Positions 2,020-58,962 of a DNA stretch of 64,000 bases are shown in pieces. The stretch covers positions 15,748,001-15,812,000 of the forward strand of contig NC_043002.1 of assembly GCF_006345805.1 (NCBI RefSeq), read 5' to 3'. This stretch comes from Octopus sinensis. Lineage: Eukaryota. Position numbers and translations under genes: made by a program. Below the pieces are notes generated by a model, which was not told the DNA's origin, did no database searches, and saw nothing but the letters and a program-made list of their open reading frames with translations. Position 1 is the first letter of the stretch, and the number at the start of each line of letters is the position of its first letter.

Positions 2020-3330
2020 GTGAAATCTCGAGTAACTCAAAGCCTACTTATTTCCAAGTAACATGGTATCCACAATGGGAGGACTGGAAAAGCTGCCACA
2101 TCAAGTTGATATCATTGTGAAGGTTTGGAGAGAGAACTCCAAAGCAGATATCCTCTATCTTCACTTCAAAAAAGCTTTCGACAATGTTAATCACAGTATT
2201 CTGTTAAAGAAACTCTGAAACATTCGAGTCTGAGGAAAATTATATACGTGGAACTTATATAAGTCTGAGGAAAATTATATAATAGGCGCAGGAGTGGCTG
2301 TGTGGTAAGTAGCTTGCTAACCAACCACATGGTTCCGGGTTCAGTCCTAATGCGTGGCAACTTGGGCAAGTGTCTTCTGCTATAGCCCCGGGACGACCAA
2401 TGCCTTGTGAGTGGATTTGGTAGACGGAAACTGAAAGAAGCCTGTCGTATATATGTAAATATATATATGTATGTGTGTGTATGTGTTTGTGTGTCTGTGT
2501 TTGTCCCCCTAGCATTGCTTGACAACCGATGCTGATGTATTTACGCCCCCGTCACTTAGCGGTTGCGCAAAACTGACCGATTGAATAAGTACTGGGCTTA
2601 CAAAGAATAAGTCCCGGGGTCGATTTGCACGACTAAAGGCGGTGCTCCAGCATGGTAGCAGTCAAATGACAGAAACAAGTAAAAGAGTAAAAGAGAGTGG
2701 ATTTATGGTATTCTGGTGTACAGAAACCCGCATGTTGTGATACATAGTGCTCTACAGAATCATCAGTGACTTGCCTTGAGGCACTGTACTGGGCTCATTC
2801 CTCTCTTATATTTACACCAGTGACATCACTGATATCAATCAAAAGAGCATTAAAATTTCTGCAAATGACTCAAAAGCTTTGGGAGCATCCCCCGATTCAA
2901 AAACCCGAACTAATCTCTAATTGCATCTGGTCGCTATTATCCGACGGGGAGAAAAAAACACAATATGCCTCTAAAGGAGAATAAATTTCAATTAATCCAC
3001 TGAGGTAAAGTGGACGCACTTAATAAAATCATAATTTTTCCCTCGTGAGAAATCCTCGTGGCATCAAATAACCATAGAAAGCTCGGCGCAACTGTCGACA
3101 ATTTAATCCAGAGTGTTCGTAACAACAACAAAGTCGATATGGACCACAGGACATGCCTTTGGATTTTCAAAATTTTTCGTTTTAGAGCCCGTTCCTATGG
3201 GGTTTTTTTTTGGCTTCTTCTTCACCTTTATCTGTCATCAACATCATTAATGTTTTATTTTCAACTTTATTTTATTCTATTCTGTATATTGAATTTCAAC
3301 TCTACACACAGACACAAGGATAAAAACAAA
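2020..3330 (+). pseudogene. Decayed CR1/L2-type LINE reverse transcriptase fragment, interrupted by a SINE
   Basis: 2130-2217 reads ENSKADILYLHFKKAFDNVNHSILLKKL (LDFxKAFD motif). After the SINE, 2770-2875 shows frameshifted remnants resembling the GTVLG..LFLIY and FADD motifs. Boundaries approximate. Confidence 0.65.
2284..2697 (+). mobile_element. tRNA-derived SINE, family A (full length)
   Basis: Head ggcgcaggagtggctgtgtggtaag with A/B-box-like motifs (gggttcagtcc), CORE-like cttgggcaagtgtctt, internal (TA)/(TG) tract and tail gaaacaagtaaaagagtaaaagag. Many related copies in the window. Confidence 0.9.
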
Positions 3331-6589: not shown

Positions 6590-8750
6590 TCTATATATAA
6601 AATTCTTTGTCTCCCTCTCTAACTCTTTCCTGTGCATTCTCAAACAGCTCGACCAAATCAAATACAGATTTACAAGGTAATATTATCAGACCCCGTGAGT
6701 GACAACGTGTAATTTCTTTTCATTTGGATTAAAACAATATAACATTGGCACTGGTTCGCTATTGAGTGTCAAAAGTTAGAGAATAATATTTATATTGCAA
6801 TGTGATATATTGTTTCACTTTTATTCTTTCACTTTTTATTCTAATGTGATAATCCTATATTGTTTCACTTTATTCTTTCACTTTTAATTCTAACGTGACA
6901 TAATATTGTTTCACTTTATTCTTTCACTTTTAATTCTAATGTGATATAATATTGTTTCACTTTATTCTTTCACTTTTAATTCTAATGTGATATAATATTG
7001 TTTCACTTTTGATTCTAATGTTATAAGCCTATATTGGTTCACTTTATTCGTTCACTTTTGATTCTAATGTGATAAGCCTATATTGTTTCACTTTATTCTT
7101 TCACTTTTAATTTTAATGTGATATAATATTGTTTCACATTTATGTTTTCATGTTTGATTCTAATGTGATAAGCCTATCATGTTTCACTTTATTCTTTCAC
7201 TTTTGATTCTAATGTGATAAGCCTATATTGTTTCACTTTATTCTTTCACTTTTAATTCTGTGATATAATATTGTTTCACTTTATTCTTTCACTTTTGATT
7301 CTAATGTGATAAGCCTATATTGTTTCACTTTATTCTTTCACTTTTAATTCTGTGATATAATATTGTTTTACTTTATTCTTTCACTTTTAATTCTAATGTG
7401 ATATAATATTGTTTCACTTTTATTCTTTCACTTTTGATTCTAATGTGATAACACTAAATTCATCTTATTTCAATTATATTTATGAAACTTTGCCAAGATC
7501 TACAAACGCATGCAGCCGCAAGTCAAATATATTCTGAAGACACAAGGGAGATGAGACTTTCCCAAAATCAGCAAATGCATGCGGCAGCACGTCAGATGCA
7601 GTCTCAAGGGAGAAGAGAGATGAGATTTTCGCAAGATCTGCAAACGCATGCTGCAGCACATCAAGTGGGGCCTCAAGAGAGAAACGAGTTGAGACTTTCT
7701 CAATATCGGCAAAAGCTTGCTGCAGCCCGTCAGATGGAGTCTCAATACAAAAGAAAGATGAGACTTTCTCAAAATCAGCAAAGCATGCTGCAGCACTTCA
7801 AATAGAATCTCAAGCCAGAAAGGATGTGAGATTTTCCCATGATAAACAAACGAATGCTGCAGCTCATCAAATGGAGTCTCAAGAGAAAGAGGAGATGAGA
7901 CTTTCCCAAGATAAGCAATCGCTTTCTACAGCTCATCAAATGGAGTTTTGAGACATGCAGTATTTAATGCTGAATCATTAAAACAACTTGTTAATGATTA
8001 GACAGAAGTCCGATACAACAGACTACGCAAAAATTCGTTCTTCACAACTGCTGGAGCTGCTTACAGATGTGATCCATCCCATTGTTATAAAAATTATAAT
8101 TTTTGATCAAACTGGTGTGCTAAACTGTCATTTCTGCAAAGCTTTAAAATTTCCAAATGTGCTGCTCAGGCGTTAAGGTATGATTGCCAATACTACAAGC
8201 TCCTCTTCAACCTCTTTTTGAATCTTCTGAAAGGCACTTCCTTTCACTTTAATGATTTTCTGAACAATATCACACTATACAACTTTGCGTTTCAAATTAT
8301 ATCTTTTAGTGCATCAAATGAGATACTTGAACATAGATTTACGTCGACGTTCAAAATTCAATGGTAAGTCTATTACTTCATTGCTTCCATGTTATCCACA
8401 AATGAACAACAACAGTTCAACTAAATTAACTTTATGAGCGATGTAGGACAGAAACCCGAAGGAGGTGTAAAACTTCAGACAAAGTGTCGTGTTAGACACA
8501 GCGCCGACCGCAGTTTTCGGTGCATTCAAAAATCACATACCTCCTATCCCCAATTTTCCATAAGAGGTTAAGGCCTGGGATACTCGAAACGGATGCATGA
8601 CATGTCCCTTACTCGAATTAGCCCATCAATTACTCCAAAAATGCTTTGCCTTCAAAACTGCACTTTCACGTATCACCTCTTTCAACATAACTGTAATATA
8701 TATACAAAATATGCCATTTTAATCCCAAGCAACGCCGGGTATCTCTGCTA

Positions 8751-9230: not shown

Positions 9231-10268
9231 AATTTATATATAAAGAACGTGAAATACACGAAGAGACGAACACGGAAAACAGACAAGTCATTCGAAGCCA
9301 AAAAATCTTCAGTCAGAAACCGAATCATCATGGCAAATTTCGGCTGATTAATTCTGATATTAGCTCCAACTCGGCCAGCCCCAAGGAAAAAACTAAGCTG
9401 TGAGCATTAGATTTCTTGGTAGAAGGAAATAATGTAAACGCAACAGAGACGAATATATATATGTATATATATATATTATTGAATCTGGGGAGAGTTATTC
9501 TCTTTTAGAGCCTCATTAATTTATTACACTCACCGGTCTGGTTTATACTCATCAACATTTATGTTTACTAAAATGTTCGTTGCGTCTTGCAGCCCTTTCA
9601 GTAATGTACAGGGTCAACGACTATTTAAAACGCTGCAAGACTCTGTCCATTATCGGAACTGCGTTCTTTTTTATTCCTTTGCTTGTGTCAGTAGGCGTGC
9701 GCATACATACATGTATGTATGTTGTGTGTATGCATATGTATATACGTATGCTTGTGTTCACGTTTATATGTATGTACGTATGTACCCTGCAAGTGCGCAT
9801 GTATGCATGTGCATTTGTTTCTATGTGTTTATGTGTGTATGTCTGTGTATGTGTGTATACATGAGTATATGTTGGTATAAATGTATGTGTGTGTATACAT
9901 ATCGTATGAAGGCATTATTCTGCGTATCCATGTGCTTGTGTGCTAATGTGTGTGTTTGTGTGTTATTGTGTGTTTGTGCTTACGTTTATATGTTTATATA
10001 CGTGTGTCTCTATGTGTGAGTGTATTTGTGCATGTACCTCTGTGTGCATGTTTGTCCGTGTCTATGTATGGGTTTGTGTGACTATTAAAACTGTGGGTAC
10101 TGGGGTATGACATCTTCTGCCAATATTTCCTATTTAGTACTGAGGATGTGTCATTAATGAGGATATACTCCTGTACTTTTCTGAGTGTTGGTTCCTTCGG
10201 GTTCTTGGATAAAATACGAAAATAAAGTTAACGCAGTGTCACCATATCCGTCTTTGGTATGCTGGTAG

Positions 10269-10373
<105 letters not shown>

Positions 10374-10664
10374 CTTTCTTTTATTAGCCACACAGGGCTG
10401 AATACAGAGGGGACAAATACAAATGCAGAGCTTTTCTTTTCGAGGGTGGAAAAAAATAAAAATGTAAGATTGCGATCAAAAGGGGTCGAGAGGAGGAAAA
10501 AAAAGAAAATCGTGTATCACAGAAATAATGGTGTAAACATTGATATAACAAGATTGGGTTCATCCGTGGGAAGAAAAGCCTACAGAAAAGACCACGGGAA
10601 CCCCAGTCAGGGAGGATATAAACACATGAGGTCAAAAATGCTCTCTTTCTTTCTTTTTTACGAT

Positions 10665-12932
10665 CTACAGGATCATGCTCAAAATGGTTTCGTTACTAGC
10701 ACGCACCATCTTTGCAACATTCACCCATCTTTTTTTGAATCTTTCGCGAGACAAAACTTCCCTCTCCATTCTCACCTTCCTTTTCAAGTGGTACTTGAAA
10801 AAGTTGATGAGCGATTGGCCAGAGAGGTAAGTGTTTGTCTCTAATCCTTTCGCTCGAGTCCACCACACACATTCTTTCACCATGGCCACCAGTACGATGA
10901 AAACTGCCTTGCCTTCCCGGTTGAGGGAAGGGGGCGGAGCAATTCTCACGATAGACTCGGCCGATAGGCGGATTCGTCCCACACGTGACAGCAGCCGTTC
11001 GGCATAAGCCCACAGGTCGGAAATGGTTGGACATTGCACGAGTGCGTGCAGAACGGTTTCGTCGCTCTGACCGCATCTCGGGCAAGTCGGTCCAGTGTGT
11101 CTGGAACCGTGTCTGTAGAGCTTATCCCGAACAGGTAATGCTTCTCGATAGCACTGCCAGGCCAGGGATCTTTGGTGATTGTTCATAGGTCCCGGCCCGA
11201 AAGTTGTCCTGAACAGGCGGGTCAGGTGTTCCTCGTCGACGCCCAGACTCTGCCCGAGTTCGTCGTCGCACCTCCCCTCCACTAATCCTCTATAGAATGC
11301 CTTTGTTGTGATGGAGTCGCACAAGTTCGATCCCGGACGGCAGAGTTGCTTGAGAGCAACGCGACACTCGCGGTGCCATTCGCCTAGCCTCGGTCTCTGC
11401 TTGATCCATGACTGTAGTTCGTCCAAGGAGACGAGCTGCGGGAAAGCGCGCCGCACAAAAGGCGACCACCCCTGTTCACCGTTGTCTATGAAGCGCCGGA
11501 GATGTCGCAGTCTCAGCGCATGTCTGCGCATCATAAACCACGGCATGCCTAGCCCTCCATTTAGCGGGTGTTGGCAGCAAATGGATCGCCTAACCATCGG
11601 AACGTTTCCCTTCCACAAGAAGCGGAAGAGTATGCGTTCCAGTTTGGTGATGGTAGGGTCGGGACAAGGCACGACGGTCAGACGATACTCGATGACGGAT
11701 GCGATGTACGCGTTCGCCACCTCCGCCCGACCTTTTAGGGATAGCTTTCTCTCAGTCCATTTCTGGGTGAGAGTAGCCACCCTAGTCGTTATCTCGCCCC
11801 AGTTCTTCTCCATTTGGAGGTCCGGACCGAACCAGACCCCGAGCAATTTAACCGGTCCGTCCGTCCAGCGTCCCACGATGGGGACGCTGTTGGACGGCAT
11901 GGGCTTGCTTCTCCAGGTGCCGAGCCGCAAGCCCACTGACTTTTCCCGGTTAATTTTTGCTCCCGTTACCGCTTCGTATTCTTTCAGTGTCTCGCCGACC
12001 AGCTCGATGTGCTCGTAGCTCGACACTATGACGGTGACGTCATCCGCGTATGCAGACACGCTCCTCCCGCATCCCAGCTCTCGTGGGATGCCCCTCAGCG
12101 TCGCCAGTTTCCGCAGTAGTGGCTCAAGAGTCAGTACATACAGCAGCGAACGCATGATACGAACCGAACGCATGATGTTAAAAGGTCTGGATAGATGACC
12201 ATTTACGCGAACTACTGAGCGGATGCCGCTGTATAAGGCAGCGATCCAACCGCGGAAAACTGGACCGAAACCAGCCGCTTTGAGGACAGTCTCCAAGTAG
12301 TGATGGTCTACCCTATCGAAGGCTTTTGATTGATCCAAATTGATCAGTGCCCCACCCATGCCAGGATTTTTAACTACCCTGTCTATGATGTAGCGCATCA
12401 GATGGAGGTTGTCATGAATACTTCTACCCGGCACGGCGCATGTTTGCGCCTTGTCGATTAGTTTCTTGATGACAAGCGCCAACCTCTCGGCTAACACCTT
12501 GGCCAAAATTTTCAAATCTGCGTTGAGCAGAGTGATGGGCCTGAAATTATCTATGACGTCCCCCTTGTTTGGGTCTTTCTTGATCAGTTCCACTGCTCCT
12601 CGCTTTACAAAAGCAGGAATACTCCCGTTCTTCTGCCAGTTGCAGTAGACAGCTGCCAAGACGCCTCCAAACAAGTCTGGCATATGAAAATAAAATTCGT
12701 AGGGCAGACCATCCAAGCCTGGTGACTTGTCTCTCGCGCAGCCTACCTTCGCATCCTGTACGTCCGCAGCTGTGATAGGCTTTTCACAGAGACTCCACCT
12801 CCCTGCTGAGAGTCGTGGCAAGGCATGCAGGTAGGCACTAAAGTCCACTCTGCTTTCTGACTCACCACTTGTCCCAAACAGTTGGGTGAAGTGTTGTTGA
12901 AAAACCCCACACATCCTTTTAGGCTCGAGCAA
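10665..12932 (-). pseudogene. ORF2 reverse transcriptase portion (frameshifted from the endonuclease part)
   Basis: Motifs KSPGLDGLPYEFY, NFRPITLLNADLKILAK, LDQSKAFDRVDH, YADD and C-terminal CPRC..ETVLHALVQC. The expected QGCPLSP motif is missing. Confidence 0.92.
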
Positions 12933-12948
12933 TTCGCGCCCCTTTCAT

Positions 12949-14094
12949 CTATAAGAGACTTGATGGTGGCTCTGTTGCCTCGTTGCGCGTCTCCACCACT
13001 CGGGCCTCTTGGGCGGCTCCAACTCCTTCGTTCCTCAGAGCACGCATCCTAGCTCTGACAACGCATCCCTCGTGTTTGGCGTTGAGGTGTTGGTCGAGGG
13101 CCAATCTCGCCGCCAGTACGTTGGACGCGATGCCAGTTCTAAGTGCCTCTTCTAAAACCTTAACTAAATCTCCCTCTATTCTATTTCGGTCTAATGCTAG
13201 GGCTCTACTGTATCTGACTGATTCTGCTTTAATCGCTTTTTTTAGGGCATACCACCATCTGTTGTTGATGATGGTACCCGTCAAAGCTCTCTTAACTAAT
13301 GTGCTGATCCGGTCCCTGTAAACCTGTCGTGCTGTAAAAGACGCGTTCAGTTTCCAGTAACCAGGACCCTGCCTATGTGTCTTATCTAAGTCAAGTGTAC
13401 AAGTCACAAACTTGTGATCTGTGTAACTGACTATATGAAATTGTGGACGACCTACACTATTTTTATCTATTGTCCTACAGAATACTCTATCTAAGTATGA
13501 TATGGACGACCCGATGCGGTTACTCCATGTCCACATTGGCACATTCGGGTGGTCCAGTCGGTACCTGTCAGACAGTTGGAAACGTCTGAGCAGGTCTTTG
13601 AGGCATTTGCATCCCCTTCTATTGCTATCTCTGCCCACGTAGTCTAGATGCGTGTCCAGGGTGGCATTCCAATCCCCCACTAAAAGTAAAGGACGAGACG
13701 TTCTCATGAAAGACTCTAGACGTCGAAAGAAATCTGGTCGGCCTGTTAAGGACGGAGCATAAACTGCTATCAGTCGAAAAGCACACTCATTGCTGCCATC
13801 GACATCCAAAACGACCAGCCTACCCTCCGGGTCTAGGAAATTTGCTCTTACTTTGAGATCCAGACTCTTCCGGATAAGCACCGCGGTGCCACCTCCGCCC
13901 ATTCTCGGTAGACACGGAGAAAAATAAATGTTGAAATGTGTACCGAAAATGTGCTGGAGTGCCCGCAAGCTGTGGAGTCTGGTCTCACTGATGGCTATGA
14001 TATTCAGATTTAGTGACTTGATGTCATTTAACAGGTAGCCTTGTTTCCAAGGCGACCCCAAGCCACGTACATTTATACTACCTATTCTGAGCAT
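12949..14094 (-). pseudogene. ORF2 apurinic-endonuclease-like domain
   Basis: MLRIGSINVRGL, ISETRL, AVYAPS, VGDWNA, SYLDRV, TDHK, and GPGYWKLN (typical of L1/Tx1 elements). Likely ATG at 14094. Confidence 0.92.
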
Positions 14095-14136
14095 GTTCCG
14101 ATAAAAGTGCAAAAAAGGAAAAGGAGAGAGAAAAGG

Positions 14137-16372
14137 TTACTTGTTTTTCGAAAGTTCTTTGTCTTTCACCTCACGGTCTTCTTCTATGAGGCTTTTATAC
14201 AGTTTTTTCGATGAGTACTTTTGAAATCTCCCTACTGCATCAGGGTAAAGAGATTTCAGGGTGCTGTATGTGTTCTGTGTCACGTGTTATTTTTAATGTG
14301 TTGTGGTGGTTTTTGTGTGGGGTGGTTACTTGTTTTTATGTCGTTTTCAGTAATGTTAGTGTTTGACCTAATGTGTTCCATTAGGTCGTGGTTGTTTGTG
14401 TTAATGGCTGTCAACATTTTTGGGGGGTTTGATGATGGTGTGTTTGTGTTGATGTGTGTGTTTTCTGTGGATGTTTTTGTTTCGGGAGTGGTGTATCTTC
14501 CCGCTTTGTTTGTTATTTTTTCTTTTCTTTTTTTTCCCCTTTTTCTTCTCCCCCTGTGGCTATTTGCCAATCTTCCGTGTCTTCTTCGTCTAATGACAGA
14601 TCAGACGAATCGGAGTCTGGAAGAGGGAAAGTATTGGGGTATATTGTCGACTGTGTTGGTTTTGTTGTTGGTGTTGGTTGGTGAGCGTTTGGTTGTGGTG
14701 TATGCGGTTTTGGATGTGGGGTTTGGGTATTTTGTGTTTGAGTGATTGTGGGTATTGTTGTGTTGTTTAGGGTCTCAATTTTGTGGGGATTTGGAGTTGT
14801 AATTGTTTCTTCATTTTTGCTGGGTGTCTTTTTGGCAGATGTCCTTGGTTTGGGAGTTGGTATATTCTTGGTTGTTGTTGTTGGTGATGCTGCTTCTGTT
14901 CTTGGTGCTGCAGTTGGTGTGGTTGTTTGTTTGGTGAGGTTTGTTCCTGCAAAAAGTGGTGTGGGTAGTAAACCTTGTTTATTTGTTTTTGTTTCCGGCT
15001 GCTGTTGTTGTTGCTGTTGTTTTCTTGCGGCAGATTTGCAGTCTTTTTTTAGGTGTTGCTCACTGCCGCATATGTAGCAACGTGGTCTTCTGCCATCGAC
15101 GACCACATATAACTTGTGGTCGTCTGATACACATATCTGTGTGGGTATTTTTTTTATATCTTCATGATGTATATGTAGAAGAAATTCTACTTTTTTTCCC
15201 ACCCAGTTTTTATGGCTTGTAAAGTCTATGGCTTGTAAAGGCCTTATGCGTAAAAATGGCGAATTATACTATTTTGGAAACCACAGTCACAGAGACTGTG
15301 GTTTCCAAAATAGTATAATTCGCCATTTTTACGCATAAGGCCTTTACAAGCCATGGACTATTGGCTATTTTGGGGACATTGTTTAGAGTGATCTTAGTCA
15401 CTTTCTGTCCCCGATAGCTTGGTGTAAGTTGGAGTTCATTTGAGTGAAGAGTTAGCGTTGAGAAATGTCTAGCTAACTCTTCGGTGTAGAAAACAACTTG
15501 TATGTGGGCAAATTTGTTCCACCAGGTTACATATTCTTTGTGATCCCAGATGGGTTTCAAGGACTTCTCTATTTTGCTTGTGTTGGCCTTCTCTGGGATT
15601 TTTGTTTTTTTGTTAACTATTTTATAAATGATTGTTCGTCTTTTTTCATTTTCCAAAATGTTTTCTGGTATGTTTATATTTACTATACCTTCTGATTCTG
15701 TTATTTTGATGTTCGTGTCCTGTATTTGTTGAGCCGTAAAGTATATTGTTGTTGTTTTTCTTTAATCGCCTCAGCGAAATTTGTTGTTGTTTTGTTATTG
15801 TTGTTGCTTGTGGTGATGTTGTTGTTGGCTGCAGTTTGTAAAATTGGTGTGTTTGGTTCGATCGTGCAAGTAGGAAGGGGTGGAAAATTGCCTGCGTACT
15901 TTAGTCCTGCACTAGGGCAAATTTCGACATTTCGTTTGCTTGTCGTCGTTATTTTTTCACTTGTTGGTGATGGAGTGAGCAGTGGTTGAAGGGAATTGTT
16001 GTTGTCGTCGTTGTTGTTGTTGTTGTTGTTGTTGTTATTGTCGTTCTTGGTGACGGCGGTGGTGTTGGTAGTATTAGTAGCATTGACGGCACGGTCTTTG
16101 GTGGCGGTGATGGTGATGTTGGTGTTGTTATTGGTGGCGATATCTTTAGTAGGGATAGCAGTTTTAGTAGCAGATTCTGCCATGGTGTTGGTGGTGGTGG
16201 TGGACTCACTGATGGTGTTGACGGTGCTTGGCCTTGCGACCTTTGTTTTGTATTTGTTGCTGTTGATGGTGGTGGAGTTGTCAGGTTCGGCGTATGCTAA
16301 CAGAGCATCCTGTTTTTCTGTTTCTGCGTCACGCTTGACTTGCACCGCAGCCTCGTGGTGGCCAGTGGCCAT
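14137..16372 (-). pseudogene. ORF1 (gag-like nucleic-acid-binding protein), broken into several frames
   Basis: ORF pieces 15701-16402, 15264-15656, 14513-15202 and 14280-14570. CCHC knuckle CYICGSEQHLKKDC; T/N/Q/P-rich low-complexity linkers. Confidence 0.8.
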
Positions 16373-16589
16373 TTTGGAAATAAAATGGCTAAATGAAACC
16401 ACGAAGGCTATGAGAATTTTTTCTTTTAAATTTTGCCCACAAGGGGCAAAATTTTGTGTCGATATTTAACAAAGGTTTACAGTGGATGTTGTTGCACAAC
16501 TTTTAAGCACAAAATGTTTGTCAATATACACTTTTAAATAGTCAAAATAAATGATTACCTTCGGAGCTGAAACGACATCACATCCGTCA

Positions 16590-16709
<120 letters not shown>

Positions 16710-17239
16710 AATTTATTGTTGCACATATATATAATGTAGAAGGCAAATTATTTTAACAACTCGTTGTTCTTTTGCTACAATTTCTAAATTACGAATTATT
16801 TCTCTTCTTCAACGCTCTCTGTGTGTGTATGTGTGTTTACTTGTGTTTTCACATTAATCGTAATTCAATTTGATAAAATTCAACAAGGAAAACCACTGGG
16901 AAATAGTTATCGTTTTATTTAACACAAGCGAGCTATCTTCTGTTAGCGATGTCAGAAGTCCAATTGAGAAATAACTCAAATTGTCTGAACTAATAAATAA
17001 ACGATGAATAATATTTAGAAGAGTTTAATTTAAGTAGGGCACTGCTAAACAAAGAAGACAACATAGGGGCTATAAACTGTTTCTAAATAAGTAAGAGGGC
17101 AGTTAAAATGCAAGATATTAAACTTAGATTTTCAGCTGTTAAAGGTTCTGAATTTACTCTGTTATACCAGAATATTCCGTAAGAACTCTTTCGAGAAACA
17201 TTGGAAAGGAATGAAGAGGTGAGAAAATGTTTCCGATCG

Positions 17240-18100
17240 TTTCCAAAGTTATCAATCATTTATCCACTTCCGCGACCCATCATTCCAGGATGGTTGTGGC
17301 AGTAGAGTTCTCAGGTCATCTGGCGTAGGGGTCTGTCAGAAAGAATTGTCATTGCATTTATCAACTAGATTCTCAAACATGAGAAACTGAATCTAAGAAT
17401 GCCATCGAAACATCTCACCCTTGTTCTACCCCTTGGTTCCTTGCCAGTTGGCTTGGCTTCATGAAATCTATCTTGTATTTCTTTCAAGTGACATTCTAAT
17501 CACAAGTCTACATTACAGGAGCAGTGGCTTCTCAGTGCCGAGAAGTAGGGGCTCGATCTGGGGGAGTCTCCCTGGTCTTCGAACTACGCGCCACGTCTAG
17601 GAACGGTGCGTCAGAGATTCATCGGAGGAACCTCATTTCGTACTCTTATGTCCACGATCGAACTCTTTTGAGTGCCATCCAAATTCGTAACCATAGGTGT
17701 GGATGGGCATAAAAGCTTCAATATATTCCACAACAAAGAGGCAGCGAACTGGCAGAAACGTTAGCATGCCGGGCGAAATGCGTAGCCGTGTTTCGTCTGC
17801 CGTTGGGTTCTGAGTTCAAACTCCACCGAGGTCGACTTTGCCTTTCATCCTTTCAGGGTCGATTAAATAAGTACCAGTTACGCACTGAGGTCGATGTAAT
17901 CGATTTAATCCGTTTTTGTCTGTCCTTGTTTGTTCCCTCTGTGTTTAGCCCCTTGTGGGTAGTAAAGAAATATATATTCCACAACAAAGAAGTGCTTTCT
18001 TCTTCTTCAATATGGTGTAACAGAAATAATTTCTGCCATTTTCAGGCAAACATATCGGCGTATAACGCAATAAATCTCATGCATTTGGACAAGATAGTAT
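17240..18100 (-). pseudogene. Decayed RTE-type LINE 3' fragment, interrupted by a SINE
   Basis: Minus strand 17600-17720 gives FMPIHTYGYEFW...RVRSW...EMRFLR, resembling the RTE-clade LTYGxExW...EMRFLR C-terminal region. Boundaries approximate. Confidence 0.55.
17740..17971 (+). mobile_element. tRNA-derived SINE, family B (Tx1-like tail), with 19-bp TSD
   Basis: TSD atatattccacaacaaaga at 17721-17739 and 17972-17990. B box gagttcaaa. Central gcctttcatcctttc..ggtcgat..aagtaccag resembles the MetaSINE domain (from memory). Tail ends aaagaaata. Confidence 0.92.
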
Positions 18101-18663
18101 GACGGGAACAGATAAGAGTGGAAGAGTTAGTTTGACAGCATAAAAGCAGTTAGGACAATAAATCAAAATGACAGTAAATTTCTGTATCATTTAAATGGTA
18201 TGGAACACCGTAATATATTTAAAACTCCTCTTCATAAATACACCTATCTTTAGCAAGAAGATCAAATCAGTCCATCATCATACCAGCAAGGAATCACAAA
18301 CTGGTAAAAGAACTCATTGAATCACATCTCTCATATAGCTTGCTCAAAGACAAGGTATTGATCCGATTCATATATTTGGTACCATCTTGATAGAAAAATG
18401 CATGAAAATAATTGCAAATCACATCAGTTTCAGAGTTGCGGAATGTAAACACAATTGGCAGGAATATGGATAGACATTGCTCAATCTTTCATTGATAATT
18501 TAATCAAAGCTACGTCTAATCAGTTTAATACACTGATATTATAGAAAGGACTAGCTGCAAAGTAATGAGATAATGTATTTTACTGTAAAGATATACCTAG
18601 CCAATTTAAACCTGGGACATATACTCGTGTATGTAAGTGTGAGGGTATGTACACATACAAAAA

Positions 18664-18892
18664 GGCGGCGAGCTGGCAGAAACGTTAGCACGCTGGGCGA
18701 AATGCTTAGCGGTATTTCGTCTGCGTTACGTTGTGAGTTCAAATTCCGCCGTGGTCGACTTTACCTTTCATCCTTTCGGGGTCGATAAATTAAGTACCAG
18801 TTACGCACTGGGTCGATGTAATCGACTTAATACCTATGTCTGTCCTTGTTTGTCCCCTCTGTGTTTAGCCCCTTGTGGGTAATAAAGAAATA
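18664..18892 (+). mobile_element. SINE family B with 16-bp TSD
   Basis: TSD ggtatgtacacataca at 18644-18659 and 18893-18908. Full head ggcggcgagctggcagaaacgttagc and tail tttgtcccctctgtgtttagccccttgtgggtaataaagaaata. Confidence 0.93.
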
Positions 18893-18949
18893 GGTATGTA
18901 CACATACATGCATACTTCTAATTTAAAAGCAGCAGAAATTTAACAAAAG

Positions 18950-18987
18950 CTGTTACTCGGAGTTTCACGTTTCCGTTCGTCAGACAG
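18950..18987 (-). ncRNA. Type I minimal hammerhead ribozyme motif
   Basis: Minus strand reads CTGT-CTGACGA-ACG-GAAA-CGT-GAAA-CTCCGAG-TA-ACAG: full core, stem I CTGT/ACAG, stem II ACG/CGT, stem III ACTC/GAGT, GUA cleavage triplet. Confidence 0.8.
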
Positions 18988-19142
18988 TTTATTATTCTAG
19001 CTCTGGTATTTGAGTACTCTTTTTTCCACCTTGTTTCACATTTATGTTTTTACTCCGGTATTTATATATACATATATACACACATATATATATAGATTTA
19101 CATATACCTATATATATATATATATATATACATTTACATATA

Positions 19143-21950: not shown

Positions 21951-23039
21951 AAATTTCAAAAGATGTAAAATTAGATGACTGTTTTTCTTTACAGAAAATT
22001 TGGACAGTACGTATGGGATTACCTGATATAAAAATGTGTTTCATATATACGGAAGAAAGAGAGAAAGTATGTAATGGAGAGAGAACGACAAGGAGATAGT
22101 CGGGCAGAGACATTCTTTTGAATGTTTTAGTTGTAGTGTTGAAGAAGTAAATATTGAAAGGAAATTTAAATATACAGTTCAAGGATAGCAGTAAACGTTA
22201 CAGAATATAATTGCACCAACACTGAGTATGTTTCAAAGTAACATGGAAATGTAATCTCAGTCTATGACATGTCAAACGATAAAAATAACAACAAACATAA
22301 CACTTATTCAATTTTTTTTTTAAATGACGTTTGGAAAATAAAATTTACTTATTTTATTGGATTAAATCCACCATAAAAAAATTCTATTTCAGCGTTTCCC
22401 TGATTCTTATTTTAGGTTGGCGCCTCTGGACCTGGAAGAAGGAAAATGAAAGTTTATAGCTGCTTTTACATTCATACTAAATAAAATTATTAAATATAGT
22501 AAAATAACTCATATTCGTTGAAGATGATTCGACTTCCTAGGAATAAATAGTAAACTTCACTCAAATAAGAGACACATTTATTTCGGTAAAGTACTCTCCT
22601 GGATAATGTCGACGCGGTTTTTCTGAGTGGGTAATGTAGTCTCGCACATATTAATCATATACAAAGGTGACTGCGAGTGAAGATGTTTTTTTTCTTTTTT
22701 CCCCACCTAAAACTTACCTGTTGTCAATTAACAACTATTATCTCATGTCAATTTGAGATAGGAGCAATTATGTGCTTCATCAATTTTGCATAAATTACAG
22801 CAAATTCTTCTTTCAGTCACACGAGTCTCTCGACTTAAATATTACAAATGTGGTAATCTGTTACTGGAATCCTTGCTAAATTACTTTAGCTATAATTCAG
22901 TCATTGCTATGTTCGATTACGGCCCAAACACTAACAATAATCGCTTAAATATCCTTACAAAAAAGTTTTGTTGCATTTATAATATCACAAATGTTATGGC
23001 ATGAGTATGGTTAAACCCACCTCAATATACAACTGGTAT

Positions 23040-23443
23040 TTACTCTTTTACTTGTTTCAGTCATTTGACTTTGGCCATACTGGAGCACTGCCTTTAGTAG
23101 AGAAAATCGACCCCAGGACTTTTTCTATCGGTCTCTAGTACTTATTCTATCGGGCTCTTTTGCCGAACCGCTAAGTTTAGGGGACGTAAACACACCAGCA
23201 TCAGTTGTCAAATGATGTTGGAGGGACAAACACAGCTACACAAACATGTACACACATACATATGTATATACATATCTACGACGGGCTTCTTTCAGTTTCC
23301 GTCTATCAAATCCACTCACAAGGCTTTGGTCGACCCGAGGCTACAGTAGAAGACACTTGCCCAAGGTGCCACGCAGTGGGACTGAACCAGGAACCATGTG
23401 GTTGGTAAGCAAGTTACTTACCGCACAGTCACTCCTGCGCCTA
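23040..23443 (-). mobile_element. SINE family A, full length
   Basis: Reverse complement of the 2284-2697 family, ending actcctgcgccta. Confidence 0.92.
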
Positions 23444-26400
23444 TTTATTGAAAAAATGTGAGTTTCTACATCCACCAACTCACTTCAAATATTACATTGC
23501 TCTCATCAAGAAACACAAGATATATAGAATTATGTCGTTCTTAATTTTTACGAATCCAAATACAAGTTTGTAACGGATGGAATAAATTTAATCGTTGGTC
23601 TTCGTAATGAGAGGAATTAGAACTTTTGACCACAAATCTCTAATCGTTCCACTCACTGTACTACATTTTTTGCAACTCGTCTTACTAATGTATCGAACTT
23701 GTATTATTCTTTATATATTCATGGAAAATCTACATCAACGTGGTGACTGCATATTCTACCGACGTCGATCGAATCCTTCCGCTTTAACTTTCGTTAGAAC
23801 TCCTGTATAATGGTTAGGTCTATGATAACAACAACTAAATTTCTTTCATACCACACTATACTCTGTTTTGAAATGAGTATAAAGTACTGCTATGAGTAAA
23901 CTCTAAAAAAAATTTTTTTTTAAATAAAACAGAAAAAATTTGCAAAGACTGGTTGATCACGACTAGATTTCCCTTTGATCATACATTGCTCAGACAATAT
24001 TTACCAGAGACTAAACAACAGCATTTACTGGTCTATTTTCGATGAAAGAAATTTAATCGTAAACATCTGATAACATCTTACCTGGATGTCATGTGACTTT
24101 GCTTATGAAAGAATACATGCATACAAATAAAACAGTACGAATGTATTGATGACTCATTCCTGCAGCATTGATTTGTGTTTGTGTGAATGTATATATGTGC
24201 ATGTGTGTGCGTGTAGGTATGCATATGTATGTGCGTATACATATACATGTGAAGTAAAATGTCCATTATTTTCCTTCTTTTTATTTGTGTTCTATATATT
24301 AAACTTAACTTTTGAATATATATATATACACCAAAATATTTGCAGTAAATGTATTGTAGGAACACATTTATTATGTGAAAACTTATGTTTGTATTTCTAT
24401 TTTCACACACACACACACATTTACACACACATATATACACATACATGAATGCATAAAATAAAAATATTTACACCTCATGTTAAAAAACAAGTCTTGTCAT
24501 GTTTAAAGAAAAATAAATATATGCATAAAAATATAATGCGATTTCAACCATTTCTCTGATGTGTTTGTGTGTGAGTGTGTCTGTGTGCGTGCGTACGTCC
24601 GTGTACAAATGTATGTATGACTCTATGTACATCTATAAATTCTTCTTATTGTACCTTTTTCTGATTGGATGACCCTTCAAACAATTTCCCTTCAAGTTCG
24701 TACCTAATGTAATATTGTTATGTAAGTTTTGCCAAAAAATTCCAATTTCCGCCTTTTCTAAGACATAGGGCTTTTGGACATAGTAATAAGAATATTTTTA
24801 AAAAATTGTCTTTGCATGCGTGAGATGAATAGCTGTGTCTCACAATTCAATACATAAATAGTTTTTTTTTCTGCTTTTTTGAACTGAATGAAAAGTTCTG
24901 CTGTTATTTTCTGCTATCATTATAGAGTGAGTGCAGTAATATCTACTAACATAACTAAGCTTAGAATATGGTCTAGGATCAATTTCTTAGGCCATCGGCT
25001 TCACATCAATTCCGTTGCTGTCTCTAAGGAAATGTAAGTAAATTATAATTTGTATAAGCGTTTGAGAATATTCAGCAGCTTTGATTTAGTGAGTTTTATT
25101 CTTTGTCTTGCGAGGATGCATCAAAAATCCTTCTTGAGATACGTGTTCAACTCTTGCTTGAACATATTTCACTTCGTTCATATCACCAACGATACAAGAA
25201 TGGATAATGCAGTTGATATCTCTTAACCAAAGTGCAGCGTTCATCTGTTTCTGACAGCAATATATCCAGCTGTACATAGGTGACCCCTGCAACGGACTGG
25301 TGATTCATTCAAGGGTAGGTTTTACTGCCTTCCTAACTAGCAGGATTACATTATTCGAAGTCTCTCAAATTCCGTAGAAGCGCATTGTGACCAGCGATGT
25401 AAGACATCACTGAAATGTAGGGTTAGTACAGTAATAGTGGTGTCAATTCGTAGTTGTTGTATTAAAATATGTATGGCATCAATCAATATAACCGGCAAGA
25501 TAAAACCTCAAAGATAATTGTTCTAAGAATATTTGGAGAGAAACACATCAAAGTGACAGCTTCGTTAGCCTCACTCACGCAGGAGAAATGTGGAGGAGGC
25601 AAATCTACATCTACAACACATCGTCTCCACCGGAAAAATTATATATATATATTTAAAAACTATATATAAAAACTATATATAAAAACTATATATATATTTA
25701 AAAACTATATATATTTAATCTTGCGAGGAACAAGAAAAATATTTTTATCGGATTCGCTTACATTAATTTCTTTCATTTATGCTATAACATTAGATTTCAT
25801 TATTTTCTCATTTGGTGAAGAGATTATTTGGAAATGTTAAAGATAAATGGATATTTGTATGCATGCATAAACATGCATACTTACATACATGTACATAAGC
25901 ATAAATACATATTTGCTATACACATACACACACACACCTATATATAAGTATGCATATACCTATGTCTGTATATATCCATATATCCATCCATCTGTCTATC
26001 TGTCTCTCTCTCTCTCTCTCTTCATATATATATATATATATATAACATATACATCTATATAGTTAATAAAGAACTTCCTTCAATAGAGAACAAACAAACT
26101 ATATGAGAAATAAGAAAAATAAAGAAAAAAGAACATCTTCCGAATGTAAGTATTGAAAATAATTAAATTGTTAAAAGAAATAATGAGACTTTACAACAAT
26201 AAAACCAACAGTACACGAACAATATCACTAATAACAAAAAGCAGAAGCTAAAAGCTCAACCAGAGCGAAGAACTATTCAATTAAAACATGCGTTACATAT
26301 CATAGTATTGATTAACATTTCAAATGGCGCCATTTTATTTTAAGGTATTCCCCCCGCTGAACAATTTAACGGACTACAAAAAGGAAAATAGAAAAAATGC

Positions 26401-26830: not shown

Positions 26831-27189
26831 TTACACATAAACACACATGTGTGGGAGTACTGTTTATATATGTATGCGTGAAACACCCATACACCCATAT
26901 ATATATATATATATATATATATAAGGAGACAAAGAGCAGAGAAAGAGAGTCAGACATAAATATACAAAAATTCATTCTCTATCCTTATCTTAACTTCCAT
27001 GTTTTCTCATGCAGTATATCATTTCCTGTGATGTTTTTGTTCTTTTTTCGTACCTAAATTTTCTGAATTATCATTTGCCTTTCCTTTTATTATTGTTATA
27101 TCGATTGTAGGAGTTGGTACAATATGCTACTGTTTAACTAATATGTGGCGAGTTCAAGCTAACATCAACTCTTTACGTCTGTCATAATC

Positions 27190-27403
27190 CCTTCCACTAT
27201 AGGCACAATGTCTGGAATTGTGATGGAGGGGAAGTAGTCGATTACATCGACCTCGGTGTTTTACTGATACTTAATTTATCGACCCCAAATGGATGAAAGG
27301 CAAAGTCGACCTCGGCGGATTTTGAACAAAGAATGTAAGGATAGACGAAATATAGCTAAGCATTTCGCCAGGCGTTGTTAAGTTTCTGCCGGCTCAACGC
27401 CTT
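27190..27403 (-). mobile_element. SINE family B, older tail variant
   Basis: ggatgaaaggcaaagtcgacctcggcgga core, with an aggcacaa...gggg tail instead of the Tx1-like tail. Confidence 0.75.
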
Positions 27404-36494: not shown

Positions 36495-36678
36495 ATGTGT
36501 CGTAACTAGCTTGCTTACCAACCACCTGGTTCCGGGTTCAGTCCCTCTGTGTGTAACCTTGGGCAAGTGTCTTCTACTATAGCCTCGGGCCGACCAAAGC
36601 CCTGTGATTGGATTTGGTAGACGGAAACTGAAAGAAGCTCGTCGTATATATGTATATATATATGTAGATATATATATA

Positions 36679-36741
<63 letters not shown>

Positions 36742-41339: not shown

Positions 41340-42192
41340 TCTAAAGTTTTCGCATGAAGCCACCGTTGGGCCGTCGGGCACTCTGCTTTATTAACCCCGA
41401 AAATATGAAAGGCAAAATCGATTCCGGCAGTATTTGAAATCACAACGTACTGCCAGGAATACCGCTAAGCATTTTGCTGGCTGTGCTTAAACATTCTGCT
41501 GGATCCCAAACCTTCCAGTAAATAATATTTTCAACTCTAGGCACAAGTCCTGAAATTTTGGGAGAGGGGGTCAGTCGATTAGATCGACCCCAGTGTTCAA
41601 CTGGTACTTAATTTATCGACCTCGAAACGATGAAAGGCAAAATCGACCTCGGCGGAATTTGAAATCAGAACGTAAAGACAGAAGAAATACCTATTTCTTT
41701 ACTACCAACAAGGAGCTACACACAGAGAGGACAAACAAGGACAGACAAACGGATTAAGTCGATTATATCGACCCCAGTGCGTAACTGGTACTTATTTAAT
41801 CGACCCCAAAGGATAAAAGGCAATGTCGACATCGGCCGAATTTGATCTCAGAACGTAACGGCAGACGAAATAACGCTAAGCATTTCGCCCGACGTGCCAA
41901 CGTTCCTGTCAGCTCACCGCCTTCATTCTGCAAATTATTAACTTTCGATTTAGCTCCGCTTGATCTCACTAGCAAGGAAATTATATATCATTATGAGAGC
42001 CCGAAAGTTTGGGGAAGGGGGCTAGTCGATTAAACCGAAACCAGTACGCAACTAGTACTTAATTTATCGACCCCGAAAGGATGAAAGGCAAAGTCGACCT
42101 CGGCCGAATTTGAACTCAGAATGTAACGGCAGACGAAATACGACTACGCATTTCGCCTGGCGTGCTAACGTTTCTGCCAGCTCGCCGCCTTT
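41340..42192 (-). mobile_element. Cluster of SINE family B copies, including one nested pair
   Basis: Copies at ~41340-41515 (degenerate), 41530-41923 (nested, junction gaaatacc|tatttcttt) and 42000-42192. Confidence 0.85.
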
Positions 42193-48596: not shown

Positions 48597-49030
48597 AAAA
48601 ACACTCCAATTTTATCAACTAGAAAATCACGGAAAAAATAAAGACACAGTATTCTTATTTCATCTAAACAATAGTAAAATTGTGCTAATGCATTTAACGC
48701 ACTGGACGAAAGTACATAAAATAAGATTTTCACTCTCGTAACGAGTAGAGTTATTTTCATCGCTCCAAATCCTGATAACGAAAATATGCAGCCCGAAACT
48801 CTCTCAAAATTTTAATTAAATGACATCATGTAAATATGGAATGCATCGTCACGTAAGGGAGATGATAATCTAGGAAGTGTTACAAGCTTATTGGATTTCT
48901 TCCGGAAAGAATAGTTTTAATGATCCTTACATTTTAGTGCCGGGTAGCTTGCACAATGATATGTAATTTCCTCGTTCAGCCTTGTTAGATCAAACGGAGC
49001 TAAATCGAAAGATGATAATTTGCCGAATGA

Positions 49031-49580
49031 AGGCGATGAGCTGGCAGAACCGTTAGCATGCCCGGCGAAATGCTTAGCGGTATTTCGTCAGCCGTTACGT
49101 TCTGAGTTCAAATTCCGTTCAAAGGTCGACTTTGCCTTTCATCCTTTCGGCGTCGATAGATTAAGTACCAGTTACGCACTGGGTCAATATGATCGACTTA
49201 ATCCGTCTGTCCTTGTTAGTCCTCTCTGTGTTTCGCCCCTTGTGGGTAGTAAAGAAATAGGTATTTCGTCTGCCGCTACGTTCTGAGTTCAAATTCCACC
49301 GATGTCGACTTTGCCTTCCATCCTTTCGGGGTCGATTAAATAAGTACCAGTTACGCACTGGGGTCGATATGATAGACTTAATCCGTTTGTCCTCTCTGTG
49401 TTTAGACCCTAGTGGGTAGTAAAGAAACAGGTATGTCATCTGTTTTACGTACTGAATTCAAATTCCGCCGAGGTCGACTTTGCCTCTCATCCACTCGGGG
49501 TAGATAAATTAAGTACTGAGGTCGATATAATTGACTTGCTCCCCCCACCAAATTTCGGGCCTTGTGCCTAGAGTAACAAA
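49031..49580 (+). mobile_element. Triple nested/tandem SINE family B
   Basis: One head at 49031, then junctions aaagaaata|ggtatttcgtc (49259) and aaagaaaca|ggtatgtcatc (49429). The last unit has the older tail (gccttgtgcctagagta). Confidence 0.9.
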
Positions 49581-49978
49581 GAATAATTTTTAGAATGATT
49601 TCAAAGCAGCGAGAATGTAAACATAACGTATCTTCAGTTTCAGTACTTTTAATATACACGTTTGAATCTGCCTTGTTTTGTTTGCTGAACATGGCAGATT
49701 CGAATGATTATATTAACCGCAGCTCATTTCCGTCCGCAGAGAACACTTCTTCTACTTAAACGATGTGTGATCGAGATTCACCGGTATAAAGGGATTTCGA
49801 TACATTCCGATGTTTCAACTGCTGTGTATTTTCTCGCTTAAACGTACACCGTCGGACCATTCATACTAACAAGTACATGAGCTCTCGAATATAAAAAACG
49901 AGCAAAGTATTTCTTGATGCGAGCTGAATAGTGTGCAGCGAAACAATAATGTATTTTCTTATTCTTGACACCTTGCGT

Positions 49979-58465: not shown

Positions 58466-58545
58466 CATCGTTTCTTTAAATATATTGACTCACACACACA
58501 CAAACACACGCATTTTTTCATACACTGACGCACACATGCTTCTTA

Positions 58546-58962
58546 TTTCTTTATTGCTCACAAGGGGCTAAACATAGAGGGGACAAACAAGGACAGACAA
58601 AGGGATTAAGTCGATTACATCGAATCCAGTGCGTAATTGGTACTTAATTTATCGACCCCGAATGGATGAAAGGCAAAGTCGACTTCGACGGAATTCGAAC
58701 TCAGAACGTAGCGGCAGACGAAATACCTATTTCTTTACTACCCGCAAGGGGCTAAACATAGAGGGGACAAACAAGGACAGACAAGCGGATTAAGTAGATT
58801 ACATCGACTCCAGTGCGTAACTGGTACTTATTTAATCGACCCCGAAAGGATGAAAGGCAAACTCGACTTCGACGGAATTTGAACTCAGAACATAACGGCA
58901 GACGAAATACAGCTACGCATTTCGCCCGGCGTGCTAACGTTTCTGCTAGCTCGCCGCCTTCA
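58546..58962 (-). mobile_element. Nested/tandem dimer of SINE family B (both units with Tx1-like tail)
   Basis: Junction gacgaaatacc|tatttctttac at 58717-58738; single head ending ctcgccgcctt at ~58960. Confidence 0.9.

What the first reader, a model, noticed from the sequence alone, without database searches (positions are those of the whole stretch)
10375..10417. SINE family B shares its 3' tail with the Tx1-like LINE: a LINE/SINE partner pair
Seen: the LINE 3' end (minus strand) TTTGTCCCCTCTGTATTCAGCCCTGTGTGGCTAATAAAAGAAA aligns with the SINE tail at 18849-18890, TTTGTCCCCTCTGTGTTTAGCCCCTTGTGGGTAATAAA-GAAA, at 37/43 positions by hand. Both end at the same point. The SINE copies have 16-19 bp TSDs, consistent with TPRT. 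Known: shared 3' tails are the hallmark of stringent SINE mobilisation, well documented for L2/CR1/RTE and less commonly for L1/Tx1. Inference: this abundant SINE is mobilised by a Tx1-type enzyme.
Basis: partly seen in the sequence, partly recalled or inferred. Interest (0 to 1): 0.85.

Follow-up and report, generated by a model that had tools for sequence, protein, structure and literature searches.

The report
Octopus SINE with a Tx1 tail
In what is likely an octopus genome, a short jumping element ends in nearly the same 43 letters as a long Tx1-like retrotransposon, other copies of the long element carry that tail too, and so the short element likely borrows the copying enzyme of this element or of a close sister family.

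Summary
Observation confirmed. The LINE 3' end (10417-10375, minus) matches the SINE tail (18849-18890) at 37 of 43 positions, and both stop at the same point with no poly(A).

The LINE is a full-length, broken, 6.2-kb L1-group element. It is closest to Tx1 by best hit and sits inside a (TATC)n array. The host is likely an octopod.

In public runs, contigs of other LINE copies bridge the UTR and the tail, and the best-supported loose ends upstream of the tail read as LINE UTR, not SINE. So the tail belongs to the LINE family.

Against this exact family being the partner: four fixed differences lie in the tail hairpin and change its loop, and 0 of 5 tail-bearing SINE loci sit in TATC arrays. 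A sister Tx1 family is more likely. Mobilisation itself is inferred, and a better match in another LINE clade could not be searched because no genome is held.

Shared tails are textbook. A Tx1-group donor in an animal was not found in the papers searched. New variant of a known kind; interest 0.55.

The parts
10373..16593 (-). Full-length, broken L1-group (Tx1-like) LINE, about 6.2 kb
   Evidence: Bounded on both sides by (TATC)n arrays; two-ORF layout with EN, RT, zf-RVT and a CCHC knuckle
10375..10417 (-). 43-nt 3' tail shared with the SINE
   Evidence: 37 of 43 identical to 18849-18890; carried by other LINE copies
10386..10399 (-). Predicted tail hairpin, 4-bp stem with a 6-nt loop
   Evidence: (z -1.9); prediction only
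10418..10664 (-). Rest of the 3' UTR, not shared with the SINE; holds a second predicted stem at about 10557-10604
   Evidence: z -1.4
10665..12944 (-). ORF2, RT and zf-RVT part (759 aa, YADD present, one conserved RT stretch disrupted)
   Evidence: Pfam RVT_1 E 1.7e-23, zf-RVT E 7e-8; alignment with relatives
12949..14094 (-). ORF2, APE-type endonuclease part, in a different frame from the RT part (frameshift)
   Evidence: Pfam Exo_endo_phos E 2.6e-13; L1 endonuclease structures hit at E about 1e-10; translation
14513..16372 (-). ORF1 in three frames (broken), CCHC knuckle near 15030-15080
   Evidence: zf-CCHC E 9e-4, 19.7 bits, just under Pfam's cut-off of 20.8
16428..16454 (-). Perfect 11-bp hairpin near the LINE 5' end whose loop and inner stem equal those of the SINE tail
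   Evidence: exact 12-mer at 16436-16447; fold z -3.9; unexplained
10269..10372 (.). (GATA)26 array flanking the LINE 3' end (likely target site)
16594..16709 (.). (GATA)29 array flanking the LINE 5' end (likely target site)
   Evidence: the two arrays are the only ones of 3 or more units in the window
18660..18892 (+). SINE family B copy, about 233 bp, 16-bp TSD at 18644-18659 and 18893-18908; tail at 18849-18890
   Evidence: A- and B-box-like motifs
17740..17971 (+). SINE family B copy, 19-bp TSD at 17721-17739 and 17972-17990
58544..58960 (-). SINE B with a tandem second body-plus-tail unit (184 bp), inside a 16-bp TSD with 2 mismatches
49030..49590 (+). Two SINE B units followed by a unit with a different tail
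41510..41923 (-). One SINE B unit followed by a unit with a different tail

Best explanation
A tRNA-type SINE and a Tx1-like LINE family end in the same 43-nt tail, which other copies of the LINE also carry; the SINE likely took this tail from the Tx1 lineage and is likely copied by a Tx1-lineage enzyme that recognises it, more probably from a sister family than from this (TATC)n-targeting one. Steps: (1) shown - shared, co-terminal tail without poly(A), borne by the LINE family; (2) shown - TSDs of 16-19 bp at 3 of 5 SINE loci, as target-primed reverse transcription leaves; (3) inferred - RNA polymerase III transcribes the SINE from its A- and B-box-like head; (4) inferred - an ORF2 protein binds the predicted tail hairpin, nicks DNA with its endonuclease and starts cDNA at the fixed tail end; (5) inferred - the SINE was born by a tail swap, since the same head and body also occur with a different tail.
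For: Tail match 37 of 43, above all shuffles. Family-borne: of the 32 contig pieces shown (14,535 not shown), 2 cover the UTR-tail junction and both bridge it with 31 or more letters on each side. One is X2 record 17 (10364-10492, 9 other letters and 6 gaps, so a different copy); the other is X19 record 9 (10357-10595). Loose ends just upstream of the tail (X2: 29 and 15 contigs; X17: 29) are variants of the LINE's own UTR and unlike the SINE's upstream sequence (compare). The SINE's letter at 10403 is the majority letter in X2, X3 and X17, and the SINE-like one-base deletion at 10379 appears in 40, 13, 23 and 1 contigs, so the family is closer to the SINE than this copy is. Homology stops sharply at 10417. 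All 7 SINE tail units end at the same point. The same head and body occur with another tail that does not match the LINE (scores 16-18, inside shuffles). TSDs are in the 7-18 bp range given for L1-clade elements or one base over it. Ages overlap loosely: SINE units are 4.4-8.4% from their majority, and LINE contigs spread from 99+ to under 90% likeness. Tx1-like: the best named long hit is YTX2 at 250 bits against 133 for human L1 ORF2, and the top Atlas cluster is named Transposon TX1.
Against: Four differences inside the hairpin region (10400, 10394, 10393, 10387) change the loop and shift the stem. At two of them (10393, 10387) the SINE letter is not among the listed differences in X2, X3 or X17; this is deduced from the counts by kind of change. 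In L2 elements the loop sets specificity (PMC4176376). 0 of 5 SINE loci touch a (TATC)n array. The hairpins are weak (z -1.9 to +0.4). The RT tree does not resolve Tx1 from other L1-group lineages. This LINE copy is broken. The direction of transfer is not shown. Other LINE clades of the genome could not be searched. hides 684 loose-end rows and 35 difference rows, and its 88% likeness cut-off shuts out most SINE tails, so it cannot show how SINE tail variants are spread.
Confidence: 0.7

Rival explanations
1. Sub-case of the best explanation: this very (TATC)n-targeting family is the partner. Its target choice would then come from pairing of read-through (UAUC)n RNA with the nicked DNA, which SINE transcripts lack.
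For: The family majority is closer to the SINE than this copy is (10403, 10379); ages overlap; RNA-target interactions are named as a factor in site-specific integration.
Against: Different loop; 0 of 5 SINE loci in TATC arrays; the endonuclease is held to be the main determinant of target choice, and SINEU shares its Tx1 partner's target.
Confidence: 0.22
2. Reverse direction: an ancestor of the LINE family captured the last 43 nt of the SINE, by read-through or template switch, and the SINE's real partner is another clade.
For: The LINE 5' region holds a second SINE-tail-like hairpin, which suggests this lineage picks up such sequence; SINEs are very abundant in octopus (11.6% of O. vulgaris).
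Against: No SINE body is attached upstream of the tail in the LINE; the tail stays attached to diverged UTR variants; the SINE head and body occur with two different tails, as expected if the SINE is the one swapping tails.
Confidence: 0.15
3. Both got the tail from a third, non-Tx1 LINE (RTE, CR1, L2 or R4/Dong, all present in octopus), which is the true partner.
For: These clades dominate known pairs; RTE-BovB is expanded in cephalopods; the TSD ranges of L1 and RTE overlap.
Against: The SINE has no terminal short tandem repeat, which such partners usually show (for RTE; recalled for CR1 and L2); TSDs of 16-19 bp exceed the 7-15 bp given for most RTE; it needs two transfers. No other LINE remnant in the window was hit by the 288 stored proteins, which are mostly L1-group.
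Confidence: 0.1
4. A SINE fragment lies next to this LINE copy by chance, or the match itself is chance.
For: SINE copies are dense in the window (17 blastn hits to one copy).
Against: Score far above shuffles; other copies carry the tail joined to LINE UTR, in runs X2, X17 and X19 from three studies and three organism labels.
Confidence: 0.02

Closest known systems
Stringent SINE/LINE pairs (eel UnaSINE/UnaL2; the 58 pairs of Ohshima 2012 and 2013)
   Same: Short shared 3' terminal sequence, co-terminal ends, predicted stem-loop. Length and identity (43 nt, 84-86%) fall in the range reported for bivalve pairs, 35-61 bp at 72-95%.
   Different: The donor is an L1-group, Tx1-like LINE. Table 1 of PMC3747384 names no Tx1 family and no mollusc; its three L1-tail SINEs are from maize, sorghum and Chlamydomonas. 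There is no terminal tandem repeat or poly(A) here.
ZmSINE2 and ZmSINE3 with LINE1-1_ZM; SINEX-3_CR with L1-1_CR
   Same: L1-clade LINE sharing a 45-80 nt structured 3' end with SINEs.
   Different: Green lineage; those elements end in homopolymer runs; not described as target-specific in the passages seen.
Crocodilian SINEU with Tx1-Mar (Kojima 2015, PMC4494074)
   Same: SINE proposed to be mobilised by a Tx1 family.
   Different: That link rests on shared target preference and shared 5' heads, and no LINE matched the 3' half of SINEU-1. Here the tail is shared and the target is not.
Microsatellite-targeting Tx1 families Kibi (TC)n, Koshi (TTC)n and crocodilian (TTCC)n/(TTTC)n families
   Same: Tx1-type layout and insertion inside a microsatellite.
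   Different: The target is (TATC)n and the host a cephalopod; that repeat is not among the targets named in the passages seen. YTX2-type proteins are only 34% identical.
Octopus SINEs OK, OR1, OR2 (Ohshima and Okada 1994)
   Same: tRNA-type SINEs of octopus; family B may be one of them or a relative.
   Different: The paper is not held, so identity is untested. OR1 and OR2 are cited as CORE SINEs; family B lacks the CORE motif CCTTGGG named, while a second 410-bp family in the window has it.

Membership tests
Tx1 clade LINE | ORF2 with APE endonuclease and RT | tested here: met
Tx1 clade LINE | Two ORFs, ORF1 with a CCHC knuckle, C-terminal zinc-binding domain in ORF2 (features recalled as typical of Tx1 and plant L1) | tested here: met
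   zf-RVT E 7e-8; zf-CCHC E 9e-4, just under the curated cut-off
Tx1 clade LINE | RT groups with reference Tx1 families in a tree | tested here: inconclusive
   Best named hits are Tx1-type, names being automatic. The quick tree of 46 rows leaves the cephalopod set and YTX2 in one open fork with fungal and algal L1-group RTs; no curated references were available
Tx1 clade LINE | Target preference | tested here: met
   (TATC)n on both sides; loose ends beyond the tail in 46 (X2) and 35 (X17) contigs give a TATC-like consensus next to the tail, agreement only 0.57
Stringent SINE/LINE pair | Shared 3' terminal sequence ending at the same point | tested here: met
Stringent SINE/LINE pair | The tail is a feature of the LINE family, not of one copy | tested here: met
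   bridging contigs and loose ends
Stringent SINE/LINE pair | Conserved stem-loop in the tail | tested here: inconclusive
   A 4-bp stem is predicted in the LINE and in 4 of 5 SINE units folded, but z-scores are weak; covariation on 6 hand-picked rows, 11 of 500 shuffles
Stringent SINE/LINE pair (this exact LINE family) | Same loop sequence in SINE and LINE | tested here: not met
   6-nt against 5-nt loop, shifted register
Stringent SINE/LINE pair (this exact LINE family) | Shared target-site preference | tested here: not met
   0 of 5 tail-bearing SINE loci beside a TATC array; small sample
Stringent SINE/LINE pair | Concurrent activity | tested here: inconclusive
   ranges overlap; 7 SINE units only
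Stringent SINE/LINE pair | Tail-dependent mobilisation in trans | not testable with these tools
   needs a cell assay
Stringent SINE/LINE pair | No other LINE clade matches the tail better | not testable with these tools
   no genome held; no loci found in collections
tRNA-derived SINE (SINE2) | A and B boxes in the head | tested here: met
   A-box-like and B-box-like motifs in 7 of 7 heads scanned, at matching places in 6 of 7; patterns recalled and loose
tRNA-derived SINE (SINE2) | Head homologous to a named tRNA | tested here: inconclusive
   No Rfam tRNA hit at E up to 1 in 10000-19100; ARAGORN finds none at 90% of its threshold and 23 mostly spurious ones at 80%
tRNA-derived SINE (SINE2) | Short, interspersed, flanked by TSDs | tested here: met
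   about 233 bp, 5 tail-bearing loci, TSD at 3 of 5
CORE SINE (OR1/OR2 type) | CORE motif CCTTGGG after the head | tested here: not met
   absent from the family B rows of alignment A1; motif taken
Meta, Deu or Nin SINE superfamilies | Conserved central domain | tested here: inconclusive
   The short body motifs were not found in the supplements searched; one file in each could not be searched and figure alignments are not held

The most novel reading that the evidence does not exclude
This is the first tail-sharing SINE partner of an animal L1-group (Tx1) retrotransposon. Octopus Tx1 elements recognise a structured 3' tail without poly(A), their sister families differ in loop and target, and one of them drove a main wave of the octopus SINE expansion. 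The SINE-type hairpin at the LINE's 5' end would be either a second protein-binding site or the stub of that sister family.
Probability: 0.4. Interest if true: 0.72.

Novelty: new variant of a known kind. Interest (0 to 1): 0.55.

Why it matters
[quoted passage not shown] An animal Tx1-group case would extend stringent recognition to animal L1-group elements and give a testable system: a tail with no poly(A), and a SINE and LINE that differ at a few hairpin positions. It would also name a likely motor for part of the octopus SINE load; SINEs are 11.6% of O. vulgaris and mostly unclassified among recent insertions, and the word 'partner' does not occur in that paper's main text. The mismatch in target sites allows a test of whether endonuclease or RNA-DNA pairing sets Tx1 target choice.

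Tried and rejected
No whole genome is held.

Searches for related loci found none: metagenome contigs twice, genome contigs and viral contigs with the RT; viral and genome contigs with a 21-base tail pattern. These collections are microbial or viral, so the blanks mean nothing.

No RNA holder was listed on record; this is no evidence on expression.

Summed depth is higher over the tail than over the UTR just upstream in 4 of 4 runs, with a second peak at 10567-10596. The tool says contig depth cannot rank parts of a stretch, so this is not counted as evidence.

Rfam miRNA hits at about 15244-15338 are below gathering scores and are explained by a perfect palindrome in ORF1; rejected.

I considered that the SINE inserts specifically into older SINE heads, because second units start at the same place. 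Neighbouring units share private variants, which fits tandem duplication better.

The careful RT tree did not finish; the quick tree was used and is unresolved. The covariation count used 6 rows and a hand-placed stem with one mostly unpaired column; inconclusive.

Earlier-findings look-ups by sequence and by place showed nothing. Ohshima and Okada 1994 is not held. Repbase, Dfam and SINEBase entries could not be searched.

Full report
OBSERVATION. They align at 37 of 43 positions (blastn E 5e-8 in the window). The local score of 54 was reached by 0 of 200 dinucleotide shuffles of the SINE against the last 300 nt of the LINE, and by 0 of 50 against the whole LINE. Seven SINE units at five loci carry this tail. 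The other six match the LINE at 33-36 of 43-44 columns and their majority at 36 of 43, so the quoted copy is the best one. All seven end at AAAGAAA plus two letters, as does the LINE; neither has poly(A) or a terminal tandem repeat. TSDs: exact 16 and 19 bp, and 16 bp with two mismatches around the dimer at 58544-58960; none at the other two loci.

THE LINE. It runs from about 16593 to 10373 on the minus strand, between two (TATC)n arrays that are the only such arrays of three or more units in the window. ORF1 starts at 16372, lies in three frames and has a marginal CCHC knuckle. ORF2 has an APE endonuclease (14094-12949) and, after a frameshift, an RT with a C-terminal zf-RVT (12944-10665). 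One conserved RT stretch is disrupted relative to its relatives, so this copy is not functional. The closest named relative is an Argonauta hians protein at 64%, and a cuttlefish protein is in a sister group. With the SINE-rich landscape reported for octopuses, I infer an octopod host. The best named long hit is YTX2 of Polyodon (250 bits; 34% identity) against 133 bits for human L1 ORF2. The top Atlas cluster is named after transposon TX1 (0.97). These names are automatic. A quick tree of 46 RT regions (45 hand-picked from 288 stored proteins, plus the window's) puts the element in a cephalopod-containing set but does not resolve Tx1 from other L1-group lineages. 'Tx1-like' is well supported; formal clade membership is not proven.

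IS THE TAIL PART OF THE FAMILY? The 3' 3 kb of the LINE is held at 0.68-0.77 of its words by 20 of 24 listed runs, from 11 studies and four organism labels. I laid 4 of these, one per label and study, on 10357-11256 at 88% likeness; all are contigs. Of the 32 pieces shown (14,535 hidden), two cover the junction at 10417/10418 and both bridge it. X2 record 17 spans 10364-10492 with 9 other letters and 6 gaps, so it is a different copy. X19 record 9 spans 10357-10595 with 3 other letters and 13 gap letters; it could be the same locus in another organism. Both run on into the TATC repeat. Loose ends directly upstream of the tail (X2: 29 contigs at 10418 and 15 at 10415; X17: 29 at 10418; agreement 0.83-0.89) resemble the LINE's own UTR and not the SINE's upstream sequence. 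No SINE-type row is among the 24 shown, but 684 rows are hidden. Beyond the tail, 46 (X2) and 35 (X17) contigs have loose ends of mixed sequence (agreement 0.57) whose consensus is TATC-like next to the tail, which points to many insertion sites with a microsatellite preference; contigs that match human DNA are filtered out, so long GATA runs may be undercounted. At 10403 the SINE's letter is the majority in X2, X3 and X17, and the SINE-like one-base deletion at 10379 occurs in 40, 13, 23 and 1 contigs. X2, X3 and X17 each list only one C>A and one G>C place, and those are 11037 and 11103, so the SINE letters at 10393 and 10387 are not among the listed differences; the likeness cut-off works against seeing them.

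WHAT ARGUES AGAINST THIS EXACT FAMILY. After allowing for family variation, four differences remain, all in the predicted hairpin region. The LINE folds a 4-bp stem with a 6-nt loop, the SINE a 4-bp stem with a 5-nt loop in a shifted register. The folds are weak against shuffles (z -1.9 for the LINE, -1.3 to +0.4 for three SINE tails). In zebrafish L2 elements stems can be swapped but loops cannot (PMC4176376, passages). Also, 0 of 5 tail-bearing SINE loci lie beside a TATC array, while crocodilian SINEU shares the target of its proposed Tx1 partner (PMC4494074, section 16). O. vulgaris has 80 L1-Tx1 consensus families, 13 of them recently active (PMC13282606), so a better-matching sister is plausible. 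I put a sister family at about 0.48 and this family at about 0.22.

THE SINE. It is about 233 bp, with A- and B-box-like motifs in all 7 heads scanned (recalled patterns) and no significant tRNA hit. The same head and body also occur with a different tail that does not match the LINE but keeps a similar loop with a different stem in some copies. Tail swapping of this kind is the model proposed for SINE superfamilies (PMC4824008, section 9). It favours the direction LINE to SINE but does not prove it. Units are 4.4-8.4% from their majority, which overlaps the spread of LINE contigs (1532, 2974, 4347 and 1004 of 9857 in the bands 99+, 95-99, 90-95 and under 90 in X2).

UNEXPLAINED. Near the LINE 5' end, 16428-16454 is a perfect 11-bp hairpin (z -3.9) with an exact 12-mer of the SINE tail. 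That 12-mer has six hits in the window with up to one mismatch, the other five in SINE tails, against 0.06 expected; the comparison was made after the fact. It is followed by an A-rich run like the tail's end. It may be the stub of a sister element with the SINE-type loop, or a 5' binding site; I could not test which.

MECHANISM. Shown: shared, co-terminal, family-borne tail; TSDs. Inferred from established LINE biology: polymerase III transcription, binding of the tail hairpin by an ORF2 protein, nicking and target-primed reverse transcription from the fixed tail end. Confidence that a Tx1-lineage enzyme is the motor: 0.7.

COMPARISON WITH PRINT. Ten searches showed no report of this pair or of a tail-sharing Tx1 partner. 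Seen: PMC3472496, first third of the text (three of 58 SINEs have L1 tails); PMC3747384, passages and all of Table 1 (no Tx1 family, no mollusc); PMC4494074, passages and sections 11 and 16; PMC11481361, passages (bivalve partners CR1, CR1-Zenon, L2, Nimb); PMC13282606, first third, passages and a supplement search; PMC4824008, passages, section 9 and a supplement search; PMC4758252, passages and a supplement search; passages only of PMC8967140, PMC5786205, PMC5804259, PMC10294476, PMC4176376, PMC6007223, PMC13295347 and PMC5753468. One supplementary file of each of PMC4824008 and PMC4758252 could not be searched and may bear on the SINE's superfamily. Ohshima and Okada 1994 is not held, and Repbase, Dfam and SINEBase were not searchable, so the SINE may already have a name and a database note may already record the pair. 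One earlier AI note on a conserved Tx1/L1-like tail in another genome was seen and not counted as support.

VERDICT. Real, family-level tail sharing between an octopod tRNA-type SINE and a Tx1-like LINE lineage. The partner is likely Tx1-type, probably a sister family. New variant of a known kind; interest 0.55.

Noticed in passing
window 10269-10372 and 16594-16709: The LINE appears to target (TATC)n; that repeat is not among the Tx1 targets named in the passages seen.
   Followed up: partly
window 16428-16454 (minus): Perfect hairpin near the LINE 5' end with the SINE tail's loop and inner stem; stub of a sister element or a 5' signal.
   Followed up: partly
window 15240-15342: Perfect palindrome with 49-bp arms inside ORF1, likely a fold-back rearrangement of this copy; it causes spurious Rfam miRNA hits.
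   Followed up: yes
window 10557-10604 (minus): Second predicted stem in the LINE 3' UTR (z -1.4).
   Followed up: partly
window 58544-58960, 49030-49590, 41510-41923: Tandem SINE units whose second unit always starts about 52 nt into the head; neighbours share private variants. The loci at 41923 and 49030 also share about 70 bp of upstream flank.
   Followed up: partly
window 41510-41691, 49430-49590, 27185-27403, 46341-46505, 42000-42193: SINE copies with the same head or body as family B but a different or decayed tail; the donor of that tail is unknown.
   Followed up: partly
window 2281-2691, 23039-23445, 36496-36947: A second SINE family of about 410 bp with the CORE motif and an internal TA/TG microsatellite; possibly OR1 or OR2 (names recalled, not tested).
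   Followed up: no
window 56395-56899 and 57962-58465: 505-bp inverted pair at 94% identity that includes an old copy of the 410-bp SINE family, about 1 kb apart.
   Followed up: no
window 28436-28878, 43114-43542, 39174-39395: MITE-like element of about 440 bp with terminal inverted repeats and an internal (CCCTAA)n run.
   Followed up: no
window 31628-31880, 55215-55714; 37660-37850, 40783-40929, 49979-50159: Two further SINE-like families with tRNA-like heads.
   Followed up: no
window 6807-7450, 7482-7946, 29739-30588: Minisatellite or satellite arrays with periods of about 46-92, 69 and 166 bp.
   Followed up: no
proteins P0009 and P0152: A 65%-identical relative of this LINE's ORF2 is filed under a Herbaspirillum MAG on a 1.8-kb contig, likely animal DNA in a bacterial bin.
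   Followed up: no
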